From the NCBI GenBank assembly GCA_963699235.1, contig OY969424.1:20311-84310 (forward strand): DNA of 64,000 bases, given 5' to 3'. Of this stretch, positions 2,590 through 63,216 are shown piece after piece. The stretch comes from an uncultured Chloroflexia bacterium (GTDB lineage: Bacteria; Chloroflexota; Limnocylindria; QHBO01). The notes beneath the pieces were generated by a model. The model did not search any database and was not told the origin of the DNA. It saw only the letters and a program-made list of their open reading frames with translations. How positions within the stretch are numbered: the first letter of the stretch is position 1; each line of letters opens with the position of its first letter. Made by a program: the position numbers and the translations under genes.

Positions 2590-3785
2590 CCGCGCGACGC
2601 GCGGCCGGGGCGGCGCTCCTGATCGGGATCGGCGCCTGGCTGGTCATCTGGTTCCAGACTGAGCCCCGCGCCAACTTCGACTCGCTCGTGTATCACACCC
2701 ACGCCCTGGAGTACGCCGGCGAGTCCCGGGCGGAGGCGGACGGCCGGAGCTGGACGATCTACAGCCGATACGCCGCCGACCGCGAACGGCTCCTGATCGA
2801 AGAGGCCATCGACCACGGCACGTGGAGCACGCCGACCAACGAGCGCTGGATGGCCCTGTACCAGATGCGACCGCTGTACCCGGCCCTGGTCGCCCTCGCC
2901 TACCCCGTCCTCGACGCGCGGGCGCCGATGGCCGTCAGCGCCCTGGTCAGCGTGACCTTCGTCCTCGTCACCGTCCTCGGCTTCGGCCTCCTCTTTGGCT
3001 ACCGGGCGGCAGCCCTCGCCACGGCGGCAGCCCTCCTCCAGGTGAACTTCACCCACTGGCTCGTCTTCCTCACGACCGATGGCCTGGCCATGCTGCTGTG
3101 GACCGGATCCCTGCTCGGGATCGCGCTGTACGCCCGCAGCGGGCGGATCGCGTGGCTGGTGGCCATCGGCCTGGCCGTCCTGGCCCTGGCCCTGACGCGT
3201 CCCACCGGCTCGCTTCTCCCCCTGGTCCCGATCGTCTGCGCCGTCGCGGCCTTCGCGCGCCGGAACCCGATCTGGCGGCGGTTCGCGGCCGCCAGCGGCA
3301 TGGCCCTCGTCCCCGCGTTCGGGGTGGTGACGGTCCAGATGCTGCTGGGCTACCCCGGCCTGGACGACGTGCTACAGGAGATCCCGACCCGCCACTTCGC
3401 CCTGGCCGACATCGAGGAGCCGATCTGGTTCACGTTCCGGGTGAACAACTGGGCCATCCCGAACCGGCTGCTCCCGACCCTCCTCGAGCAGCCATTGCTG
3501 CTGGCAACCCTCGTCACGGGCATCATCGGCCTGGTCGTCCGCCGGTCGTGGACGGCGGCCCCGTTCCTGGTCGCGGCCCTCATCGTGCCGCTGGCGTGGG
3601 TCATCCACCCGGTCTGGTCCGATGCCGGCCGCATCCTGGCCCCGGCGTGGGTCAGCCTGAACCTGGGCATCGGCCTGTTCGGGGAGTGGGCGCTGGTCAC
3701 CTGGCGTGAGCCGATCCGGCGCGGGATCGGGTGGGCCACCAGCCCGCACTTCGAGGCGCAGGCGCCCCCTAGCATGGAGAAATGA
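2586..3785 (+). CDS. Polytopic membrane protein, possible GT-C-fold glycosyltransferase
   Basis: About 10 hydrophobic segments; RPLYP, TDG and TRP motifs reminiscent of ArnT/PMT-like proteins; ATGA overlaps on both sides. Confidence 0.55.
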   Translation: MTARRAAGAALLIGIGAWLVIWFQTEPRANFDSLVYHTHALEYAGESRAEADGRSWTIYSRYAADRERLLIEEAIDHGTWSTPTNERWMALYQMRPLYPALVALAYPVLDARAPMAVSALVSVTFVLVTVLGFGLLFGYRAAALATAAALLQVNFTHWLVFLTTDGLAMLLWTGSLLGIALYARSGRIAWLVAIGLAVLALALTRPTGSLLPLVPIVCAVAAFARRNPIWRRFAAASGMALVPAFGVVTVQMLLGYPGLDDVLQEIPTRHFALADIEEPIWFTFRVNNWAIPNRLLPTLLEQPLLLATLVTGIIGLVVRRSWTAAPFLVAALIVPLAWVIHPVWSDAGRILAPAWVSLNLGIGLFGEWALVTWREPIRRGIGWATSPHFEAQAPPSMEK

Positions 3786-56131: not shown

Positions 56132-56800
56132 ATGGCCATCTTACGGGCTGAGGGGGAGTGGCAGGCAACGGTCGCCCACGCCCTGGCCACGGCCGAACGA
56201 CCGATTCCGGTGGACCCGCGCTTCGTCCCACGTCGGGCCGTCCCCGACCCGGCCCAGGAGGAAGCCGATGCCCGGCGGTTCGACCGTTCCCGCTTCCCGA
56301 CGGCGCGCGCCGCAGCGACCCTCCTGCTCATCTACCCGTCGGACGGGACGCTGGTCATCCCGCTCACTGTCCGCCACGACGCGCTGGCCTCCCATCCGGG
56401 CGAGATCAGCCTCCCGGGCGGCGCGGTGGATGCCGACGACGCGAGCCTGGAAGATACGGCGCTGCGAGAGGCCCGGGAGGAGATCGGCCTGGACTCCGGC
56501 TCGGTCAGGGTCGTCGGTCGGCTGGACCCGGTCTGGATCCCGATCTCGAATTTCGAGCTCGTCCCCATCGTCGCCGTCGCTGATGAGCCGCCGATGCTGA
56601 CCCTGGGCCTGGACGAGGTCGCCGAGCTGATCGAGCTCCCGCTCGACCGCCTGCTTGCGGAAGACGGCGTGACCGAGGAGGAGATCGTCGTTCCCGGCGC
56701 GGTGCTCCGGACCGGGGTCTACTTCTGGGCCGGGCACCGAGTGTGGGGTGCTACCGCCCGCACGCTGTCCATGCTGGGGACCGTGCTGGAGGGCGTCTAG
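56132..56800 (+). CDS. NUDIX hydrolase, CoA pyrophosphatase-like
   Basis: AATLLL, LTVR..L.SHPGEISLPGG, ALREAREEIGL, VWGATA; start uncertain. Confidence 0.88.
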   Translation: MAILRAEGEWQATVAHALATAERPIPVDPRFVPRRAVPDPAQEEADARRFDRSRFPTARAAATLLLIYPSDGTLVIPLTVRHDALASHPGEISLPGGAVDADDASLEDTALREAREEIGLDSGSVRVVGRLDPVWIPISNFELVPIVAVADEPPMLTLGLDEVAELIELPLDRLLAEDGVTEEEIVVPGAVLRTGVYFWAGHRVWGATARTLSMLGTVLEGV

Positions 56801-57378
56801 GCAGGGGACGGCGCGGGTGCCGCGTCGTCCGCCCGATGCAGGATGAGCGGCGCCGGGCAGGCGAAGGGCAACGGCCGGCAGCGGGCGGCGATCTCGCCCG
56901 GCTCCCGATCCTCGCGGAGTTGGATCTGCCCGGTGTCGTCCCACTCGATGAGGAACGTCACCGCGCTGGTCACCGCCATCATGAAATCGTGCTGGAGGAC
57001 GATGACTGCTGTGCTGGGCATCCGGAAGTCCGAGGTCAGGTGACCCTGGATATTGACCAGCGTCCAGAGCTCGTCCTGGGCCTGGCTCAGGAACTCGGGA
57101 TTCGCGGCCGAGCCGTAGACGCACTTTCCGACCTGGGTCAGCCAGACCGTCTCACCCGAGTCGACCAGCGCCCCTTCACCTTCCCACATGCCGGTGAGGT
57201 CGATACGCTCGCCGTCCGGGCTCAGGAGGTCGATCGACTCGCACCCCTCCGGAAGGAGGCCGCCACCATCGACACTTGATCCAGACGCGGCCGGGGCGGA
57301 CGAGGTGGCGGAGCCGGATGGCGTGCAGCCAACCACGACCACCCCGATCAATGCCGCGACCAATCGGCGGCGGGTCAT
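56797..57378 (-). CDS. Lipoprotein, Cys-patterned paralog family (L2)
   Basis: Lipobox VVVGC; GCESIDLLSPDGERIDLTGMW...QVGKCVY...RC..FACPAPL. Confidence 0.78.
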   Translation of the reverse strand: MTRRRLVAALIGVVVVGCTPSGSATSSAPAASGSSVDGGGLLPEGCESIDLLSPDGERIDLTGMWEGEGALVDSGETVWLTQVGKCVYGSAANPEFLSQAQDELWTLVNIQGHLTSDFRMPSTAVIVLQHDFMMAVTSAVTFLIEWDDTGQIQLREDREPGEIAARCRPLPFACPAPLILHRADDAAPAPSPA

Positions 57379-58196
57379 CACGGGCGGCGGTGAACCCGCG
57401 TACCCGCTTCCCGCAGGAGGCGAAGGATCTCGGCGTGGTGCGGCTCGGGAGCAGCCACGATGCTTAGGACCGCTGTGTCGCGCTTGGGCTGCCACCACGG
57501 TCCGCCGGCCACGTTGGTGACGGTCGCGCCGCCGCGCTCGGCGATGAATCCGGCCGCCGCCACGTCCCAGCGCGACAGGCCGCCGTTCTGGACGAAGGCA
57601 TCGAACCGCCCGGCACCGACCGATGCCAGGGAGAGCGCCGCACTGCCCATCCGGCGGTGGATCCGGATCTCGGGCGCGATCTTGCGTTCGCGCGACAGGC
57701 CGCCTCGGCCGAGGATGGCGAGGCTCACCACACAGTCGCCGAGGGCCTCTTTCGAGGATGCCTTCGCGAGGGACCCGTTCAGGCGGGCGGCTGCCTGGGC
57801 GGTGGCGGTGTACAGGTCGCCGCGGAGCGGATCGAAGACGACGCCGAGAACGGGCACCAGGTCTTCGATGAGCGCGATCGACACGCAGAAGTAGGGGATC
57901 CCGTTGGCGTAGTTCACCGTACCGTCGAGGGGATCGATCGCCCACCACCGCCGCGCGCCGTCGGGGCCGCCGACCCGGTCCGCGCCGGCCTCCTCGGCCA
58001 GGATCCCATCCTCCGGGAAGCGGCGCCGGATCCGCTTCGCGATGAGGGCCTCGGAGCGGAAGTCGACGTCGGTGACGACGTCGCGCCGGCTCTTGTGCCG
58101 GACCCGGCCCACCCGGCCGTAGGACTCGAGGATGAGCGTCCCGGCTGCTCGCGCCAGGCGGACCGCGAACTCGAGCTCCTCGGCGTACCGACTCAC
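57378..58196 (-). CDS. Inositol monophosphatase family protein (SuhB-like)
   Basis: DVVTDVD, AEE, WAIDPLDGTVNY, RMGSAAL, SRWDVAAA. Confidence 0.9.
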   Translation of the reverse strand: MSRYAEELEFAVRLARAAGTLILESYGRVGRVRHKSRRDVVTDVDFRSEALIAKRIRRRFPEDGILAEEAGADRVGGPDGARRWWAIDPLDGTVNYANGIPYFCVSIALIEDLVPVLGVVFDPLRGDLYTATAQAAARLNGSLAKASSKEALGDCVVSLAILGRGGLSRERKIAPEIRIHRRMGSAALSLASVGAGRFDAFVQNGGLSRWDVAAAGFIAERGGATVTNVAGGPWWQPKRDTAVLSIVAAPEPHHAEILRLLREAGTRVHRRP

Positions 58197-58238
58197 TCCG
58201 GCATGCTAGCCGGTGCCCCGACCGGCTAGGCTTGGTTC

Positions 58239-58974
58239 ATGCCGCAGATCCACCTCCACGCCGAGCCCGGCGACTACGCGCCGCTCGTCCTCCTCCCCGG
58301 CGACCCAGGGCGGGCGACGATGATTGCGTCCCGCTTCGACGGCGGCCTCGAGGCCGCCCGACTGGTCACCGAGCACCGGGGATTGCTGGGCTACACCGGG
58401 ACGGTCAACGGCCGCCCGGTCAGCGTCCAGACCACCGGGATGGGCGGCCCATCCATCGGCGTCGTGGGCGAAGAGCTGATCCGGCTGGGGGGTCGGCAGC
58501 TGGTGCGCGTCGGGACGACCGGTGCGCTGCGTAGCCGACATCGGCCTGGGCGACCTCATCATCGCCACCTCGGCGACGCCGATCGACGGCACGGTGGCGA
58601 CGTTCATGGGCGGCAGGCCGTATGCCCCGGCGTCGGACTTCGCCCTGACCCATGCCCTGGTCCACGCCGCGGAACAGCTCGAGGTCCCTCACCACATCGG
58701 GCCCATCGCCAGCATCGACGTCTTCTCGCACTACCACCCCGATCCACAGTTCGTCCGCCCGTGGCGCGACGCCGGGATCCTCTGTGTCGAGATGGAGGCC
58801 AGCGTCCTGTTCTATCTGGCTGCGACGAAAGGAGTCCAGGCCGCGTGCCTGGGGGTGGCGGTGGACATCGACTCGGGCGAGGAGAACCAGGAGCACACGT
58901 ACCTGAGCGCCGAGGAGCTGGCGGCGGCCGTCGAGCGGATGATCGACGTCGCCTTCACCGCCGAGATCGGCTAG
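58239..58974 (+). pseudogene. deoD: DeoD-type purine nucleoside phosphorylase with +1 frameshift at about 58533 (or assembly error)
   Basis: LPGDPGRA, RGLLGYTG, TGMGGPS, RVGTTG in one frame; GDLII, SIDVF, VEMEAS in the next; joined length about 244 aa. Confidence 0.8.
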
Positions 58975-59234
58975 CTGGCGGTCCTCATTCGGTCGCGGAT
59001 CGGCCCGTAGACGGCGAGGAGCAGGATGGCGCCGATCGAGGCGCCGATGAACCCGCCCGGGCGGAGCTCGAACCCCTCCCCCAGCAGGACGCTGAACAGC
59101 GTGCCGCCGACCACCGAGCCGGCGAGGCCGACGATGAACAGTTCGAGGGGGGTGAAGCCGCGGCGGGCGCCGACGACGCGGTTGGCGACCCAGCCAGCGA
59201 CGATGCCGATGATGATGATGGCGATGAAGATCAT
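58971..59234 (-). CDS. GlsB/YeaQ/YmgE (transglycosylase-associated) small membrane protein
   Basis: IIGIVAGWVA, VGLAGSVVGG, IGASIGAILLL. Confidence 0.85.
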   Translation of the reverse strand: MIFIAIIIIGIVAGWVANRVVGARRGFTPLELFIVGLAGSVVGGTLFSVLLGEGFELRPGGFIGASIGAILLLAVYGPIRDRMRTAS

Positions 59235-59261
59235 GGACGCTCAGGATACCGTGGGCACCGT

Positions 59262-59822
59262 TCACTCTGCCCGCTTCAGGACGAGCGGAGCCGGGCAGAA
59301 GCCGCCGGGGTCTGGGCATCGTGGCCCGCTGACGCCCGGCTCGCGGTCTTCGCGCAGGAGGATCTCACCCGAGTCGTCGAACTCGACGAACATTCGGAGC
59401 GCGGAGTACGGGGTGATACCGCACGGACATTGCACCAGGTAGAGAATCTCCCCGGTGATGATGTAATCGGACCCCATTCGCCCGGCGAGGCTCTGAACGT
59501 GGTCCGGCCGCGGGTCGAGACTCCCCGCCGGCGGCACATCCTCGATGTGGCCGGCGCCCCACACGCAATCCCCTTCGGTGCGGATGTACCACGTCATGAG
59601 GGGGGCGGCGGTGCCAACCTCGGCCCACGTCCCGTCAAGGACCACTCGCTCTCCATCTGGGCTGCTCAAGTTGATGAGCTCACACCCGGGAGGGAGGTTC
59701 GCGGCACCCTCCTCCGATCCGCTGGGGGAGGGCGTGGCGGATGAAGGCGTTGTGGTCGGCGAGGAGCAGGCCGCGAGCAGGAAGACGCTCAGGATGCCGA
59801 CGGCGACGGGGCGGGCACGCAT
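59262..59822 (-). CDS. Lipoprotein, Cys-patterned paralog family (L3)
   Basis: Lipobox LLAAC; LPPGC..INLSSPDGERVVLDGTW...GDCVW...GPRCPDPGGFCPAPL. Confidence 0.8.
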   Translation of the reverse strand: MRARPVAVGILSVFLLAACSSPTTTPSSATPSPSGSEEGAANLPPGCELINLSSPDGERVVLDGTWAEVGTAAPLMTWYIRTEGDCVWGAGHIEDVPPAGSLDPRPDHVQSLAGRMGSDYIITGEILYLVQCPCGITPYSALRMFVEFDDSGEILLREDREPGVSGPRCPDPGGFCPAPLVLKRAE

Positions 59823-59911
59823 CACGGGCGAGCATACGGGAGGCAGTGGCTGCGCGGAATCCCTTGGCTTGACGGCGACCATCGGCTCTTGAACAGGAGG
59901 CGCCCGGACCG

Positions 59912-60290
59912 ATGACCAAGACCAAGCCTGCTCCCGCGGCCGAGACGACCGACTTCCTGCCCCTCAAGGGCATCGATCACGTCGAGTTCTGGGTCGGCAA
60001 CGCGAAGCGGGCCGCCCACTACTCCCGGACGCGATGGGGCTTCACGCCAGTTGCCTATGCGGGGCTCGAGACCGGCGTCAGGGATCGGTCCAGCTTCGTG
60101 CTCGTCCAGAACGACATCCGCTTCGTGTTCACCGCGCCCCTAAAGCCCCGAGGGCGAGGTCGCGGAGCACGTTCGAAAGCATGGCGACGGGGTCAATGAC
60201 ATTGCCTTCGCGGTGGACGACGTCACGTCAGCCTGGCGCGAGACGACCGCGCGCGGGGCGGTCTCGGCCCTCGAGCCGACCGCGCCGGCT
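59912..60290 (+). pseudogene. hppD: Truncated, frameshifted 5' duplicate of hppD
   Basis: First ~125 codons clearly homologous to 61525ff; +1 in CCCC run 60146-60149; homology stops at the L4 stop codon. Confidence 0.88.
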
Positions 60291-60855
60291 AGTCGATTCG
60301 ACGCAAGAGCAGCGGGCTCAAGCAGAAGATGCTCGGATCGAGGCACCGAGGCCCCTCGGCGCCAGGCTCGCGGTCTTCATGCAGGGTGACCTCGCCGGCA
60401 TCGTCGAACTCGATCAGGAACCGGATCGGTGCGTAGATCGGGTTCCCGGACCCAAACCCATCCCCCTGCGGGCCCAGGAGCAGGATCTCGCCCTCGATCG
60501 TGTAGTCGCTTCCAATTGTCCCCGCGAAGGTCTGGATGCTGAGCAAACCGAGAGCGCCGTCGGGGACCTCGTCGGTTGCCCCAGCGCCCCACACGCAATC
60601 GCCCAGATCCCGGATCCACCAGGTCCGCGGATCGGCCTCCTCGACCGCATCTTCTCGCCACGTCCCGTCAAGATCGATGCGCTCCCCGTCTGACGAGGCC
60701 AGATCGATCGGCTGGCAGCCCGGTGGGAGGGCTCCTTCCTGCACAGTCGAGGCCCGCACCGATGGCGCGGGCGTGACGGTCGGCTGCGGAGTGCCGGTGC
60801 AGGCGCCAACGCTGGCGAGCGCGAGCAGACCAATGACGAGCGGACGGACGCGCAT
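60289..60855 (-). CDS. Lipoprotein, Cys-patterned paralog family (L4)
   Basis: Lipobox SVGAC; LPPGCQPIDLASSDGERIDLDGTW...GDCVW...GPRC. Confidence 0.8.
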   Translation of the reverse strand: MRVRPLVIGLLALASVGACTGTPQPTVTPAPSVRASTVQEGALPPGCQPIDLASSDGERIDLDGTWREDAVEEADPRTWWIRDLGDCVWGAGATDEVPDGALGLLSIQTFAGTIGSDYTIEGEILLLGPQGDGFGSGNPIYAPIRFLIEFDDAGEVTLHEDREPGAEGPRCLDPSIFCLSPLLLRRID

Positions 60856-60858
60856 CGG

Positions 60859-61434
60859 CTACGGCTCGATCGGCCGGAGGACGAGCGGGGCCGGACAGAA
60901 GCCGGCCGGGTCGGGGCAGCGTGGTCCTCGGACGGCCGGGTCACGGTCCTCGCTGAGGAAGATGGCACCCTCAGCGTCCCAGTCGATCTCCATCAGGAGC
61001 GGCGAGTACCGAGGTGGATTGCCCGGCGCGCCCAGCGGAGTACCGCCCAGCCAGAGGATCTCGCCGGTGATGACGTAATCGGAGCCGATCCGTCCCGACA
61101 GGCTCTGGACCTGGTCGTGACGGGCCTCGATCGTTCCTCCTGCCGCGGGCTCATCGACACTGCCGGTTGCCCACACACAGTCGCCCACGGTGACGATCCA
61201 CCACGTCATGAGGTGGCCGGCCTCCGCGTCCTCGACCCAGGTTCCGTCCAGGACGACGCGTTCGCCGTCCGGGCTGCGCAGGTCAATCGTCTCGCAGCCG
61301 GGGGGAAGATTCCCGGTCTGCTCGATGGGGTCGCTCGCTGATGGCGAAGGCGTCACGGTTGGCGAGGGGCTGCTGGTGCAGGCAGCGACTCCCACGAGGA
61401 CGAACAGGCCCACGGCGGCCGGACGGGCGCGCAT
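60859..61434 (-). CDS. Lipoprotein, Cys-patterned paralog family (L5)
   Basis: Lipobox GVAAC; LPPGCETIDLRSPDGERVVLDGTW...GDCVW...GPRCPDPAGFCPAPL. Confidence 0.8.
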   Translation of the reverse strand: MRARPAAVGLFVLVGVAACTSSPSPTVTPSPSASDPIEQTGNLPPGCETIDLRSPDGERVVLDGTWVEDAEAGHLMTWWIVTVGDCVWATGSVDEPAAGGTIEARHDQVQSLSGRIGSDYVITGEILWLGGTPLGAPGNPPRYSPLLMEIDWDAEGAIFLSEDRDPAVRGPRCPDPAGFCPAPLVLRPIEP

Positions 61435-61524
61435 GAGTGGAGCATACGAGAGGGCGAGCGGCGAGCGGAAGCGCGTGGACGGACGGCGTACCATCGGTCC
61501 CTGAAGAGGGAGGCGCCCGAACCG

Positions 61525-62652
61525 ATGGCCACGACCAAGCCGGCCCCCACGGCCGAGACGACCGACTTCCTGCCCCTCAAGGGCATCGACCACGTCGAGT
61601 TCTGGGTCGGCAATGCGAAGCAGGCCGCGCACTACTTCCGGACGTTGTGGGGCTTCACACCGGTGGCCTACGCCGGGCTCGAGACCGGCGTGCGGGATCG
61701 ATCGAGCTTCGTGCTGGTCCAGAACGACATCCGCTTCGTGTTCACTGCCCCGCTCACGCCTGATGGCGAGGTGGCGGAGCACGTCCGGAAGCACGGCGAC
61801 GGGGTGCACGACATCGCGTTCTCGGTGGACGACGTCGCATCCGCCTGGCGCGAGACCACGGCGCGCGGGGCCGTATCGGCCCTGGATCCGACCGAGTCGC
61901 CGGGCGATAAGGGCGTGTTGCGGACATCCGCCATCCATACGTACGGCGAGGTGATCCACACCTTCGTGGACCGATCGGACTACGCCGGCACGTATGCCCC
62001 CGGCTTCCATCGGATCAAGGACCCGGCGCCGGCGGCCACCGGCCAGACCCTTGAGATGATCGACCACTGCGTCGGGAACGTGGCCCTGGGCGACATGAAT
62101 CGGTACGTGGACTTCTACCGGGAGGTGCTGGGCTTCAGCCAGCTCGTGCACTTCGACGACAACGCGATCCATACCGAGTACAGCGCCCTCATGAGCAAGG
62201 TCATGCAGAACGGGGACGGGCGGATCAAGTTCCCGATCAACGAGCCCGCCGAGGGCAAGCGGAAGAGCCAGATCCAGGAGTTCCTCGACTACTACCTCGA
62301 CGCGGGCACCCAGCACATCGCGCTGCTGACGACCGACATCGTTGGGACGGTCCGCGCGCTCCGCGGCCGGGGAGTCGAGTTCCTCGGCCTGCCGCACGAG
62401 TACTTCGCGGCGCTCCCGGACCGGGTCGGCGACGTGGGCATCCCGATCGACACCCTGGAAGAGCTGGGAATCGAGGCCGACCGTGACGAGGAGGGCTACC
62501 TCCTCCAGATCTTCACCAAGCCGATCCAGGACCGCCCGACGTTTTTCTTCGAGATCATCGAGCGCCACGGCTCACGGGGGTTCGGGCTTGGGAACTTCAA
62601 GGCCCTGTTCGAGGCGATCGAGCTGGAGCAGGAGAAGCGCGGCAACCTCTGA
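61525..62652 (+). CDS. hppD: 4-hydroxyphenylpyruvate dioxygenase
   Basis: IDHCVGNV, HTEYSALMSKV, IKFPINEP, SQIQEFL, QHIAL, LLQIFTKP, FFEIIER, FGLGNFKALFEAIE. Confidence 0.97.
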   Translation: MATTKPAPTAETTDFLPLKGIDHVEFWVGNAKQAAHYFRTLWGFTPVAYAGLETGVRDRSSFVLVQNDIRFVFTAPLTPDGEVAEHVRKHGDGVHDIAFSVDDVASAWRETTARGAVSALDPTESPGDKGVLRTSAIHTYGEVIHTFVDRSDYAGTYAPGFHRIKDPAPAATGQTLEMIDHCVGNVALGDMNRYVDFYREVLGFSQLVHFDDNAIHTEYSALMSKVMQNGDGRIKFPINEPAEGKRKSQIQEFLDYYLDAGTQHIALLTTDIVGTVRALRGRGVEFLGLPHEYFAALPDRVGDVGIPIDTLEELGIEADRDEEGYLLQIFTKPIQDRPTFFFEIIERHGSRGFGLGNFKALFEAIELEQEKRGNL

Positions 62653-62658
62653 GCGGCG

Positions 62659-63216
62659 CTATGGCTCGGTTCGGCGGAGTTCGAGGGGCTCTGGGCACGG
62701 GCCATCGCCACCGAAGCAGCCGGGCGGGCCAGTGTTCGTCCGATCCTCGACCAGGACCATGTCTTCGCCCTCGAAGGTGACCCGGAGAACGGCGTCGCCG
62801 TGGTCGTAACCCGGGATGAGCTGGCCGGTCATGTCGGCGAACGTCCCGACGATCAGAAAATCCGAGCCCAGCCGCCCGTGGAATGTCGAGAGGAACGGCG
62901 GCTCGCCGTCTCCGATGGCCACGTGGCCGACGATCCAGACGCAGTCACCGATCTGCCGCAGGTAGGACACCATGTCCGAGCCCCCGTCCCAAGTAGAGGT
63001 GCCTCCCGGCCCGTCGCCCAGGACCACCTGCTCGCCATCGGGACCGATAAGGCTCGGCGTTACGGATACATCGCAGCCCGTCGACCCGGCAGCGCCGTCA
63101 CTCGGCCTGGCTGAAGGACCGGCCGATTCCGCGGGCGCGGAAGGGGAGCATGCGGCGAGGAGCACAAACCCGAGCACCATGGCGACCCGGCGGGCGCGGG
63201 TCGGGACGAGCGGCAC
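62659..63216 (-). CDS. Lipoprotein, Cys-patterned paralog family (L6)
   Basis: Lipobox LLAAC; GPDGEQVVL...LRQIGDCVW...GRLGSDF...C-x6-CPEPL; GTG start 6 nt after CACACT. Confidence 0.75.
   Translation of the reverse strand: MPLVPTRARRVAMVLGFVLLAACSPSAPAESAGPSARPSDGAAGSTGCDVSVTPSLIGPDGEQVVLGDGPGGTSTWDGGSDMVSYLRQIGDCVWIVGHVAIGDGEPPFLSTFHGRLGSDFLIVGTFADMTGQLIPGYDHGDAVLRVTFEGEDMVLVEDRTNTGPPGCFGGDGPCPEPLELRRTEP

What the first reader, a model, noticed from the sequence alone, without database searches (positions are those of the whole stretch)
59262..62652. Fossil of the mechanism: duplicated [lipoprotein<-promoter->hppD 5'] unit with a decayed hppD copy
Seen: L3 + 89-bp intergenic + hppD fragment (59262-60290) is homologous to L5 + intergenic + intact hppD (60859-~61900). 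L3 and L5 are the closest paralog pair. The intergenic regions align (GAGCATACG...GACGGCG(T)ACCATCGG...GGAGGCGCCCG.ACCGATG). The fragment copy has lost the T of its TACCAT -10 box, gained a +1 frameshift (CCCC 60146-60149), accumulated many substitutions, and ends at the L4 stop codon. Inference: the lipoprotein family expands by local tandem duplication that drags neighbouring DNA along; the passenger decays while the lipoprotein copy stays intact and diverges, implying selection for new variants. The many substitutions argue against an assembly artefact.
Basis: partly seen in the sequence, partly recalled or inferred. Interest (0 to 1): 0.62.

Follow-up and report, generated by a model that had tools for sequence, protein, structure and literature searches.

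The report
Broken hppD copy marks lipoprotein-cassette capture
A truncated, recently disabled copy of a housekeeping gene (hppD) sits in a fast-changing row of lipoprotein genes in an uncultured soil Chloroflexota bacterium; its mutations look like those of a working gene, so it was probably left by recombination with a related lineage rather than by slow decay after a local duplication.

Summary
Window 59262-60288 (L3, an 89-bp spacer, hppD codons 1-125) is homologous to 60859-61899 (L5, spacer, intact hppD). The fragment ends 0-2 nt from the L4 stop codon. It carries a +1 frameshift at 60140-60149. It alone among 20 sequences lacks the T of a conserved GCGTACCATC motif.

The fragment differs from hppD at 51 of 375 sites, about 72% of them synonymous (dN/dS 0.10). 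A codon branch model rejects neutral evolution on its branch (p<1e-6) but not the rate ratio of working hppD genes. So most of the "many substitutions" arose while that sequence belonged to a working gene. Only the indels and a few radical replacements are decay.

The closest relative found (ENA contig "R", about 93% identical) has M-Ra-Rb-spacer-hppD, with no fragment, L4 or L5. None of 40 relatives searched shows an hppD 5' fragment. The slot holds 0-4 L genes across 16 relatives of the genus.

Best reading (about 0.5): DNA from a related lineage (L4-L5-spacer-hppD 5') recombined using hppD as the anchor and displaced the resident 5' end. This resembles Rhs and T6SS-immunity displacement arrays. 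Species G013 carries a mirror-image 3' fossil.

The scan's index holds a first-reader note on the same lipoprotein array; its follow-up was withheld.

The parts
58971..59234 (-). M: small membrane protein (Transgly_assoc). It is the conserved left border of the lipoprotein-cassette slot.
   Evidence: PF04226, E=4.9e-8. Found next to the slot in most genus relatives.
59262..59822 (-). L3: lipoprotein paralogue of 186 aa (start MRARP..., lipobox LLAAC). It is the ortholog of Ra in relative R, with an Rb-like 5' end, so it is a fusion of two tandem genes.
   Evidence: ORF and paralogy. L3 vs Ra: dS 0.088, dN 0.071. Chimera pattern. No Pfam or NCBIfam match.
59823..59911 (.). Spacer ig' (89 bp) between L3 and hppD'. 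GAGCATACG at 59830-59838 reads TATGCT on the - strand, 8 nt before the L3 ATG. GACGGCG-ACCATCGG at 59871-59885 lacks the T of TACCAT. GGAGG at 59896-59900.
   Evidence: About 93% identical to the Rb-hppD spacer of R, but only about 70% to the L5-hppD spacer. The only one of 20 aligned upstream regions without the T. The sigma-70 consensus scan finds nothing, so the -10 role is inferred from conservation and spacing.
59912..60288 (+). hppD': the first 125 codons of 4-hydroxyphenylpyruvate dioxygenase, with a +1 frameshift within 60140-60149. As encoded, the ORF stops at 60199 (95 aa). The catalytic C-terminal domain is absent.
   Evidence: 86.4% nt to hppD codons 1-125. Only the N-terminal VOC/HPPD_N Pfam models match. 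dN/dS 0.10 vs hppD. Branch model rejects omega=1. Three unique replacements at genus-invariant residues, Q33R, L41R and E124A, against 0-1 in 20 working genes.
60288..60289 (.). Junction J: the end of hppD homology abuts the L4 stop codon (CTA at 60289-60291), with no intervening DNA.
   Evidence: Alignments and sequence.
60289..60855 (-). L4: lipoprotein paralogue of 188 aa. No ortholog in relative R.
   Evidence: Sits in the same clade as L3 and L5, with the longest branch.
60859..61434 (-). L5: lipoprotein paralogue of 191 aa, the positional counterpart of L3 next to the hppD promoter. Predicted 8-stranded beta-barrel.
   Evidence: Best database relatives are only 61-67% identical and all come from Limnocylindria. 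AF2 mean pLDDT 83.8. Only weak lipocalin-like fold matches, E>=0.08.
61435..61524 (.). Spacer ig_B (90 bp) between L5 and hppD. GAGCATACG at 61440-61448; intact GACGGCGTACCATCGG at 61482-61497; GGAGG before the ATG.
   Evidence: It resembles the spacer type of species G002, G009, G011 and G016 more than that of R.
61525..62652 (+). hppD: intact 4-hydroxyphenylpyruvate dioxygenase, 375 aa.
   Evidence: TIGR01263 equivalog, 424.9 bits against a cut-off of 277. 87-95% aa identity to the full-length or near-full-length genes of genus relatives. Compared with R, 91.2% nt in the first 375 nt and 94.4% in the rest.

Best explanation
The feature is a scar of cassette capture, not a slowly rotting tandem twin.

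Setting. The row of lipoprotein (L) genes between the small membrane gene M and hppD is a hypervariable slot in this Candidatus Limnocylindria genus.

Proposed event. In the G000 lineage, after its split from the closest known relative R, a DNA segment from a related lineage entered. That segment carried that lineage's version of the same locus: L4, L5, the divergent-promoter spacer, and the 5' part of hppD. One end recombined by homology inside hppD, with a crossover downstream of codon 125. The other end, at the L4 stop, joined illegitimately to the resident hppD at codon 125/126. This is homology-facilitated illegitimate recombination. A Campbell-type single crossover of a circular copy would give the same map.

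Result. hppD stayed intact, now with an imported promoter and 5' part. The resident promoter and first 125 codons were pushed upstream and stranded next to L3. On this reading L3 and L5 are positional counterparts from two lineages rather than in-genome duplicates.

After the event. The stranded piece lost function and began to decay: loss of the T in the conserved TACCAT motif, a +1 frameshift, and a few radical replacements.

Shown: the structure, the truncation and damage, the working-gene substitution pattern of the fragment, absence of the block in R, absence of an hppD 5' fragment from the 40 relatives searched, and the mosaic affinities.

Inferred: the inter-lineage origin, the direction (insertion in G000 rather than deletion in R), and the exact mechanism.
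For: 1. Substitution pattern.
- hppD' vs hppD: 36.8 synonymous and 14.2 non-synonymous differences; dS 0.54, dN 0.053, omega 0.10.
- Changes unique to the fragment: 35 (codon positions 5/6/24; 24 synonymous, 11 non-synonymous). Intact hppD has 16 and R has 17.
- Neutral expectation is 66-75% non-synonymous. Binomial P is 1e-7 to 3e-5.
- GY94-F3x4 branch model: omega of the fragment branch is 0.04 against a background of 0.024. omega=1 is rejected (2dlnL 25-35, p<1e-6). omega equal to background is not rejected (p=0.25).
- The non-synonymous excess allows a neutral phase of no more than about 20% of the branch.

2. Closest relative R (ENA contig, 92-94% nt over 35 kb).
- R has M-Ra-Rb-spacer-hppD, with no fragment, L4 or L5.
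- L3 matches Ra (dS 0.088), and ig' is about 93% identical to R's spacer, so these parts are resident.
- ig_B is only about 72% identical to R's spacer, and L5 vs Rb has dS 0.86, so these parts are not orthologous to R.

3. Timing. Fragment, intact hppD 5' and R form a supported trio with an unresolved trichotomy. The fragment's sequence is therefore as old as a species split, while its inactivation is recent.

4. Wider survey. None of the 40 relatives searched has an hppD 5' fragment, and none has two full-length hppD matches. The slot holds 0-4 L genes in 16 genus relatives.

5. Independent mirror case. G013 has hppD-La-Lb-[83-nt hppD 3' remnant with an indel]-Lc. Its Lb is 94.7% nt identical to the hppD-adjacent L of G005, while the flanks are 88-90%. 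G012 has hppD-Lc and G005 has hppD-Lb.

6. dS between G000 and R varies from 0.09 to 0.49 across adjacent genes, as expected with frequent recombination between lineages.

7. Known analogue. T6SS effector-immunity arrays and Rhs C-terminal displacement are explained the same way, with a conserved anchor and displaced gene ends left as fossils (PMC5361080).
Against: - No donor lineage was found. The best L5 and L4 relatives in 5.8 billion proteins are 54-67% identical, and the metagenome and genome scans with L3 found nothing close.
- With only 375 nt, the order of branching among fragment, intact hppD and R cannot be resolved. Which copy is resident and which is imported therefore stays open.
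- The fragment is slightly further from R (dS 0.47) than the intact 5' part is (0.30). That is the opposite of the simplest prediction for a resident fragment, although it lies within the local range of 0.09-0.49.
- The step in G000-R divergence at about nt 450 of hppD (9.3% vs 4.9%) is not significant once the usual 5'/3' rate ratio of 1.46 is allowed for.
- Trees of the 5' and 3' parts of hppD conflict only mildly.
- R could be a deletion product rather than the ancestral state.
- The join falling exactly at the L4 stop codon is a coincidence under any model.
- Reads were not available.
Confidence: 0.5

Rival explanations
1. A tandem duplication inside this genome copied [L(-L)-spacer-hppD codons 1-125]. 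The truncated passenger has decayed neutrally ever since, while the L copies diverged.
For: - The map is exactly that of a tandem duplication of a unit running from the L4 stop to hppD codon 125.
- L3 and L5 are the closest paralogue pair.
- The fragment carries a frameshift and a damaged promoter motif.
- The fragment's branch is about twice as long as those of working copies.
Against: - Neutral evolution on the fragment branch is rejected. The excess changes are synonymous, which no neutral phase can produce.
- At dS 0.54, the divergence is at least that between G000 and R (about 0.3), yet R lacks the block.
- ig' is orthologous to R's spacer, while ig_B is not.
Confidence: 0.12
2. An old tandem duplication of the whole unit gave two full-length, working hppD genes that coexisted for most of the divergence time. 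Recently the first copy lost codons 126-375 by deletion in G000. R lost the block by recombination between the two copies near the ATG.
For: - It explains the low omega.
- It explains the switch of affinity at the hppD start seen in R: the spacer resembles ig', while the coding part is nearer the intact hppD.
Against: - It needs three events instead of one.
- No genome listed in the searches has two full-length hppD matches. In 41 genomes all matches are listed; the 176-genome search lists only its best 150 matches, with 74 unlisted.
- The deletion would have to end within a few nt of the L4 stop, a target of about 1% of possible end points.
- L4 is not related to the L6-type gene that follows hppD.
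Confidence: 0.13
3. The truncated N-terminal HPPD piece was itself a selected, expressed small protein until very recently, or still is if the indels are assembly errors.
For: - omega on the fragment branch is indistinguishable from that of working genes.
- Reading through the frameshift gives a 158-aa open frame.
- The pattern of synonymous and non-synonymous changes is the same before and after the frameshift (site list).
Against: - The frameshift and the loss of the T in a motif invariant in 19 other sequences.
- Three radical changes at invariant residues.
- The catalytic domain is absent.
- The protein search for short relatives returned hppD pieces with cut-off ends or out-of-frame tails (the sequences read are of these kinds), not a conserved truncated family.
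- rpoB, rpoC and dnaE are intact single frames, so the assembly is not riddled with indels.
Confidence: 0.06
4. Assembly artefact: two strain haplotypes of the variable slot were strung together in tandem.
For: - The boundaries coincide with where two alleles of the slot would diverge (the L stop) and reconverge (inside hppD).
- A working allele from a second strain would explain omega of about 0.1.
- The window has one other frameshifted gene, PNP at 58532.
Against: - The join at 60288/60289 has no sequence overlap on which an assembler could merge reads.
- The 1.6-kb unit is far shorter than long reads.
- The fragment carries inactivating lesions, while L3 in the same stretch is intact.
- Essential long genes are intact.
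Confidence: 0.05

Closest known systems
Displacement arrays at polymorphic loci: orphan immunity genes after T6SS effector-immunity replacement in Vibrio cholerae, and Rhs/CDI C-terminal displacement (Kirchberger et al. 2017, PMC5361080, and the references it cites)
   Same: A conserved gene serves as the homologous anchor. An incoming module from another strain is inserted next to the resident one. The resident module is pushed aside and kept. A cut-off end of the anchor or effector gene stays behind as a fossil. Arrays differ between close relatives. The mechanism proposed there is homology-facilitated illegitimate recombination.
   Different: Here the cargo is predicted beta-barrel lipoproteins of unknown function, not toxin-immunity pairs. 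The anchor is a metabolic housekeeping gene (hppD), and the displaced piece is its 5' end with its promoter. No link to secretion systems is seen. The donor is not identified.
Homology-facilitated illegitimate recombination in transformable bacteria (de Vries & Wackernagel 2002; Prudhomme et al. 2002; Meier & Wackernagel 2003, as cited in PMC5361080; E. coli conjugation, PMC3240628)
   Same: One homologous end and one illegitimate end. Foreign DNA is inserted next to the anchor. The product map matches: resident hppD(1-125) | L4-L5-spacer-hppD(1..c) | resident hppD(c..end).
   Different: This is inferred from sequence only. No microhomology could be pinned down at the junction. Competence or any other uptake route in Limnocylindria is unknown.
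Ordinary tandem segmental duplication leaving a truncated pseudogene (duplication followed by degeneration)
   Same: Direct repeat of a gene, its spacer and a gene fragment. The fragment lacks the 3' two thirds and carries a frameshift.
   Different: The fragment's substitutions are those of a gene under purifying selection. The copies are as diverged as different species, yet the closest relative lacks the structure.
Integrative islets that carry their own promoter and 5' part of the target gene (Campbell-type or site-specific integration; Zhao & Williams 2002, known to me only through scan note e1-1522916 and not read here)
   Same: Cargo flanked by direct repeats of the promoter plus 5' part of a gene. 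The downstream copy remains the working gene.
   Different: No integrase or att core is present. The repeats are 14-35% diverged. The target is a protein-coding gene, not a tRNA gene.

Membership tests
4-hydroxyphenylpyruvate dioxygenase (TIGR01263): intact gene 61525-62652 | Full-length match above the curated cut-off, with two VOC-fold domains | tested here: met
   424.9 bits against a cut-off of 277, profile positions 1-353 of 353. Pfam Glyoxalase, Glyoxalase_4 and Glyoxalase_5 cover both halves.
4-hydroxyphenylpyruvate dioxygenase: fragment 59912-60288 | Presence of the C-terminal catalytic domain | tested here: not met
   Only residues 1-125 are present. Only the N-terminal VOC/HPPD_N models match. 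Homology ends at the L4 stop.
Duplication-derived pseudogene decaying in place | Disabling lesions: truncation, frameshift, promoter damage | tested here: met
   The lesions could not be confirmed by reads.
Duplication-derived pseudogene decaying in place | Neutral substitution pattern (omega near 1, equal rates at the three codon positions) since the copies separated | tested here: not met
   Codon positions 5/6/24; 24 synonymous and 11 non-synonymous; P<=3e-5. omega=1 rejected at p<1e-6.
Duplication-derived pseudogene decaying in place | The structure is shared by relatives that split after the copies diverged | tested here: not met
   R (92-94% nt) lacks the fragment, L4 and L5. None of 40 relatives has an hppD 5' fragment.
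Displacement array formed by anchored recombination (Rhs / T6SS-immunity type) | A conserved anchor gene with a cut-off copy of its end beside the cargo | tested here: met
   hppD' lies beside L3 and L4. A second case is the hppD 3' remnant in G013.
Displacement array formed by anchored recombination (Rhs / T6SS-immunity type) | Cargo more similar to genes of another lineage than expected from vertical descent | tested here: inconclusive
   Met for G013: Lb is 94.7% identical to G005's gene against 88-90% in the flanks. For G000, L4 and L5 have no ortholog in R, but no donor was found.
Displacement array formed by anchored recombination (Rhs / T6SS-immunity type) | Array content differs between close relatives | tested here: met
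   0-4 L genes between M/PNP and hppD in 16 genus relatives. R has 2 and G000 has 3 plus the fragment.
Bacterial lipoprotein (L3, L4, L5) | N-terminal signal peptide ending in a lipobox with an invariant Cys | tested here: met
   MRARP..., a hydrophobic run, then LLAAC / SVGAC / GVAAC. Cys19 is invariant in 61 family members. This rests on sequence inspection; no dedicated predictor was run.
Integron gene cassettes | An attC site after each cassette and an integrase with attI | tested here: not met
   The L4-L5 spacer is 3 bp and junction J has 0-2 bp, which leaves no room for an attC. No integrase was noted among the ORFs and gene calls of the locus; no dedicated integrase search was run.

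The most novel reading that the evidence does not exclude
The L row beside hppD may be a polymorphic cassette locus of Limnocylindria that grows by sequential capture of other lineages' alleles. hppD on one side and M/PNP on the other would act as recombination anchors, without any integrase. That would be a lipoprotein counterpart of toxin-immunity displacement arrays. It would imply frequency-dependent or diversifying selection on these predicted beta-barrel lipoproteins, for example as phage or predator targets or as ligand binders tied to the homogentisate pathway. The G000 5' fossil and the G013 3' fossil would be two independent records of the process.
Probability: 0.2. Interest if true: 0.6.

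Novelty: new member of a known kind. Interest (0 to 1): 0.36.

Why it matters
The case shows that a "fossil" gene fragment can mislead about both age and mechanism. Here the divergence between the copies mostly predates the fragment's death.

It points to recombination between related lineages, rather than in-genome duplication, as a way a surface-lipoprotein family diversifies in an abundant but uncultured soil class.

It also marks a tractable locus for population genomics. The slot has conserved flanks, a variable content of 0-4 cassettes, and dated scars.

For annotation, L3 and L5 may be xenologous alleles rather than paralogues. The 95-codon ORF at 59912-60199 should be flagged as an hppD pseudogene.

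Tried and rejected
- Search for a donor or a same-species relative. Scans of metagenome and genome contigs with L3 found nothing close. The L5 protein search gave at most 67% identity, apart from the R contig, which came to light through L3-like hits. Contigs of P0127 and P0123 have hppD 5' parts no closer to the fragment than to the intact gene.
- Contig ends in relatives. The G011 contig ends at hppD codon 124 and first looked like a shared fragment. It is just a contig end.
- "Frameshift as assembly error". This was considered because PNP is also frameshifted and several few-contig relatives have split hppD genes. However, rpoB, rpoC and dnaE are intact, and most 1-nt indels between G000 and R are insertions in R, where they break R's ABC-transporter genes.
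- Mosaic tract or crossover point inside the 375 nt. None is convincing. Informative sites split 4/3-4/3-5, and three A=B sites cluster at nt 234-252.
- Divergence step at nt 450 of hppD. Not significant after allowing for the usual 5'/3' rate ratio.
- Trees of the hppD 5' and 3' parts. Only mild conflict, involving G012 and G004.
- Integron-like cassettes. Rejected because there is no room for attC sites.
- Homology left of the L stop codons (59166-59261). This is noise.
- Fetching more of the R record through the genome search handles. Not possible. The contig was extended with the look-up of encoding contigs instead.
- The 176-genome family search.

Full report
**What is there**

The window is G000:C1:20311-84310 of a single-contig 2.09-Mb genome. 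Source names of near-identical and related proteins place it in Candidatus Limnocylindria, Chloroflexota.

The gene order at the site is:
- M, a PF04226 small membrane protein, 58971-59234, minus strand
- L3, 59262-59822, minus strand
- an 89-bp spacer (ig')
- hppD', 59912-60288, plus strand
- L4, 60289-60855, minus strand
- L5, 60859-61434, minus strand
- a 90-bp spacer (ig_B)
- hppD, 61525-62652, plus strand; TIGR01263, 424.9 bits against a cut-off of 277
- L6 and L7, minus strand

The L genes belong to a family with about 13 members in this genome. The family has no Pfam or NCBIfam model. Its homologues come from Limnocylindria and other Chloroflexota assemblies and are all labelled hypothetical. 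The proteins have a lipobox Cys and conserved further Cys, Trp and Gly positions. AlphaFold predicts an eight-stranded beta-barrel with pLDDT 84. Fold matches are only weak and lipocalin-like, with E>=0.08.

**Checking the observation**

Self-BLASTN pairs 59166-60287 with 60764-61899 at 73% over 1154 columns, E=0. Sliding windows show three zones: L3/L5 at 45-80% identity, the spacers at 60-80%, and hppD'/hppD at 82-98%. The roughly 95 nt beyond the L stop codons are noise.

- the conserved spacer blocks;
- the missing T in GACGGCG-ACCATCGG;
- a +1 frameshift, placeable in either the AAA or the CCCC run at 60141-60149;
- the end of homology directly at the L4 stop codon.

L3 and L5 are the closest paralogue pair at 57-60% aa.

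**The spacer motifs are meaningful**

In an alignment of 20 regions upstream of hppD, GCGTACCATC is present in all 19 others, whatever the distance to the ATG. In several species it lies 7 nt before the ATG, which is a leaderless layout. In others it is followed by a leader with GGAGG. Only ig' lacks the T.

GAG[C/G]ATACG reads TATGCT or TATCCT on the minus strand, 8 nt before the L start codon. These are therefore probably the two divergent -10 elements. That is an inference, because the sigma-70 consensus scan finds nothing.

The fragment and hppD differ at 51 of 375 sites, split 8/6/37 by codon position. That gives dS 0.54, dN 0.053 and omega 0.10.

I took the ancestor of the trio (fragment, intact hppD, relative R) and counted unique changes:

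| Lineage | Unique changes | Synonymous | Non-synonymous |
|---|---|---|---|
| Fragment | 35 | 24 | 11 |
| Intact hppD | 16 | 14 | 2 |
| R | 17 | 11 | 6 |

Under neutrality 66-75% of changes should be non-synonymous, depending on the mutation spectrum. The binomial P is between 1e-7 and 3e-5.

I also wrote a GY94-F3x4 branch model for eight sequences:
- omega on the fragment branch is 0.04, against a background of 0.024;
- omega=1 is rejected, with 2dlnL of 25.1 or 35.5 on the two topologies tried (p<1e-6);
- omega equal to the background is not rejected (p about 0.25).

The excess on the fragment branch is mostly synonymous. No neutral phase can produce that, because a neutral phase adds almost three non-synonymous changes for every synonymous one.

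Signs of real decay are few:
- the two indels;
- three unique replacements at residues invariant in 20 working genes (Q33R, L41R, E124A), against 0-1 per working gene.

The non-synonymous count caps the neutral phase at roughly a fifth of the branch.

**Relatives**

Among 40 relatives, including 17 of the genus, none has an hppD 5' fragment and none has two full-length hppD matches. In 16 genus relatives the slot between M/PNP and hppD holds 0 to 4 L genes. In the family tree these L genes form one supported clade that is star-like inside.

A much closer relative surfaced through L3-like proteins. This is ENA contig_34454, called R here. It is 92-94% identical to G000 over 35 kb. R reads M-Ra-Rb-spacer-hppD.

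Comparisons of G000 with R:
- Ra is the ortholog of L3 (dS 0.088). L3 has an Rb-like 5' end and upstream region, so L3 is a fusion of two tandem genes that R still keeps apart. That is an array contraction by unequal crossing-over.
- R's spacer is about 93% identical to ig' but only about 72% to ig_B.
- L5 vs Rb has dS 0.86 and dN 0.32, which is not an orthologous level of divergence.
- In the first 375 nt of hppD, R is 91.2% identical to the intact gene and 86.4% to the fragment.

The three hppD 5' sequences form a supported trio inside G009 (support 97/84). Their order is unresolved: the AU test gives p=0.42, and informative sites split 4/3-4/3-5.

Local dS between G000 and R ranges from 0.09 (L3) and 0.10 (nudix) up to 0.43 (M) and 0.49 (L2). 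The fragment's dS of 0.47 to R is therefore within the local range.

**Putting it together**

- Parts that look resident, meaning R-like: M, L3, ig' and the 3' part of hppD.
- Parts with no counterpart in R: L4, L5 and ig_B.
- The fragment was part of a working hppD until recently.

A single event accounts for this. DNA carrying another lineage's version of the locus (L4-L5-spacer-hppD 5'...) recombined with one homologous crossover inside hppD, downstream of codon 125. Its L4 end joined illegitimately to the resident hppD at codon 125/126.

The product is resident hppD(1-125) | L4-L5-ig_B-hppD(1..c) | resident hppD(c..end), which is the observed map. It needs no duplication of resident DNA.

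A Campbell-type crossover of a circular copy gives the same map with the resident and imported roles of the two 5' parts swapped. The 375 nt cannot tell these apart.

This is the logic proposed for orphan-immunity arrays at T6SS loci and for Rhs C-terminal displacement, through homology-facilitated illegitimate recombination (PMC5361080; PMC3240628).

**A mirror-image case**

G013 has hppD-La-Lb-[83-nt piece of the hppD 3' end, nt 943-1024, 88% identical to its own gene, with a 1-nt indel]-Lc. G012 has hppD-Lc and G005 has hppD-Lb. G013's Lb is 94.7% identical to G005's gene, although the flanks are 88-90% identical. So in a second species an L block apparently derived from another lineage sits next to a stranded end of hppD.

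**Rivals**

- A long-lived pair of full-length hppD genes explains the low omega. It needs three events, is not seen in any listed match of the 41- or 176-genome searches (the larger search lists only its best 150 matches), and needs a deletion ending exactly at the L4 stop.
- A selected truncated protein is contradicted by the lesions. The short-protein search returned hppD pieces with cut-off ends or out-of-frame tails rather than a conserved truncated family.
- An assembly artefact is unlikely. The junction offers no overlap for a false join, and rpoB, rpoC and dnaE are intact. It could not be excluded without reads.
- A hybrid history also remains possible: a recent tandem duplication followed by overwriting of one copy with an imported allele. 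It shares the recombination element of the best explanation.

**On "selection for new variants"**

L genes evolve faster than their neighbours. For L2, L6 and L3-L5, omega is 0.27-0.31, and for L3-Ra it is 0.8. Neighbouring genes are at 0.03-0.13. No comparison exceeds 1. Ra carries a frameshift in R, which is either a real lesion or an assembly error. Diversifying selection is therefore plausible but not shown.

**Verdict**

The mechanism is better read as anchored capture of a diverged allele than as duplication followed by decay. This is a known kind of process, seen here in a new setting. Interest is moderate.

Noticed in passing
window 58239-58974 (frameshift at about 58532): The purine-nucleoside phosphorylase gene (PF01048 in relatives) is split into two frames in G000 by one extra T (GCGCTGCG[T]AGCC). 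R and 15 genus relatives have it in one frame. It is either a real pseudogene or a rare assembly error.
   Followed up: partly
window 59262-59911 vs L043 (R) Ra/Rb: L3 is a chimera. Its body matches Ra (dS 0.088), while its first ~55 nt and its upstream spacer match Rb. That implies an unequal crossover that fused two tandem L genes, contracting the array.
   Followed up: yes
L028 (G013) 3692-3772, with L034 (G005) and L032 (G012): A second hppD fossil: an 83-nt piece of the hppD 3' end (nt 943-1024, 88% identical to its own gene, with a 1-nt indel) lies between L genes downstream of hppD. The neighbouring L gene is 94.7% identical to the hppD-adjacent L of G005, although the flanks are 88-90% identical.
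   Followed up: partly
upstream of hppD in 20 sequences (window 61482-61497 and loci L002-L045): GCGTACCATC is conserved in 19 of the 20 sequences (all but ig'). In about seven species it lies 7-8 nt before the start codon, a leaderless layout. In others a ~28-nt leader with GGAGG has been inserted. So the same gene switches between leaderless and leadered forms within one genus.
   Followed up: partly
window 56132-63198 vs R: Synonymous divergence between G000 and R varies five-fold between adjacent genes: nudix 0.10, impase 0.30, PNP 0.31, M 0.43, L2 0.49, L3 0.09. This suggests a mosaic of recombined segments.
   Followed up: partly
P0004-P0100 (metagenomic hppD gene calls): In about 17 gene calls, where recorded on contigs from under 1 kb to 228 kb, homology to hppD stops at residues 119-133 and continues as an out-of-frame tail; several end at the same length of 221 aa. 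In addition, two short-read contigs end at codons 124 and 126. This is the place where the G000 fragment ends. It is probably an assembly frameshift hot spot, but the coincidence is unexplained.
   Followed up: partly
G000:C1:1793005-1796580: A second DnaE-like polymerase gene is split over three reading frames (open frames of 860, 754 and 73 aa), while the main dnaE at 1183699-1186791 is intact. Two L-family paralogues lie 10-18 kb away.
   Followed up: no
L043/L047/L048 (ENA ERZ25039469 contig_34454): This assembly carries about 16 single-base insertions per 8.4 kb relative to G000. They break its ABC-transporter genes and Ra. Gene calls from it should be read with care.
   Followed up: partly
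window 60859-61434 (L5) and alignment A2: The L family is predicted to fold as an eight-stranded beta-barrel (pLDDT 84). The lipobox Cys (C19), C47 and C86 are invariant and C173 and C180 nearly invariant across 61 members. The best fold matches are weak and calycin/lipocalin-like (HP1028, E 0.08).
   Followed up: partly
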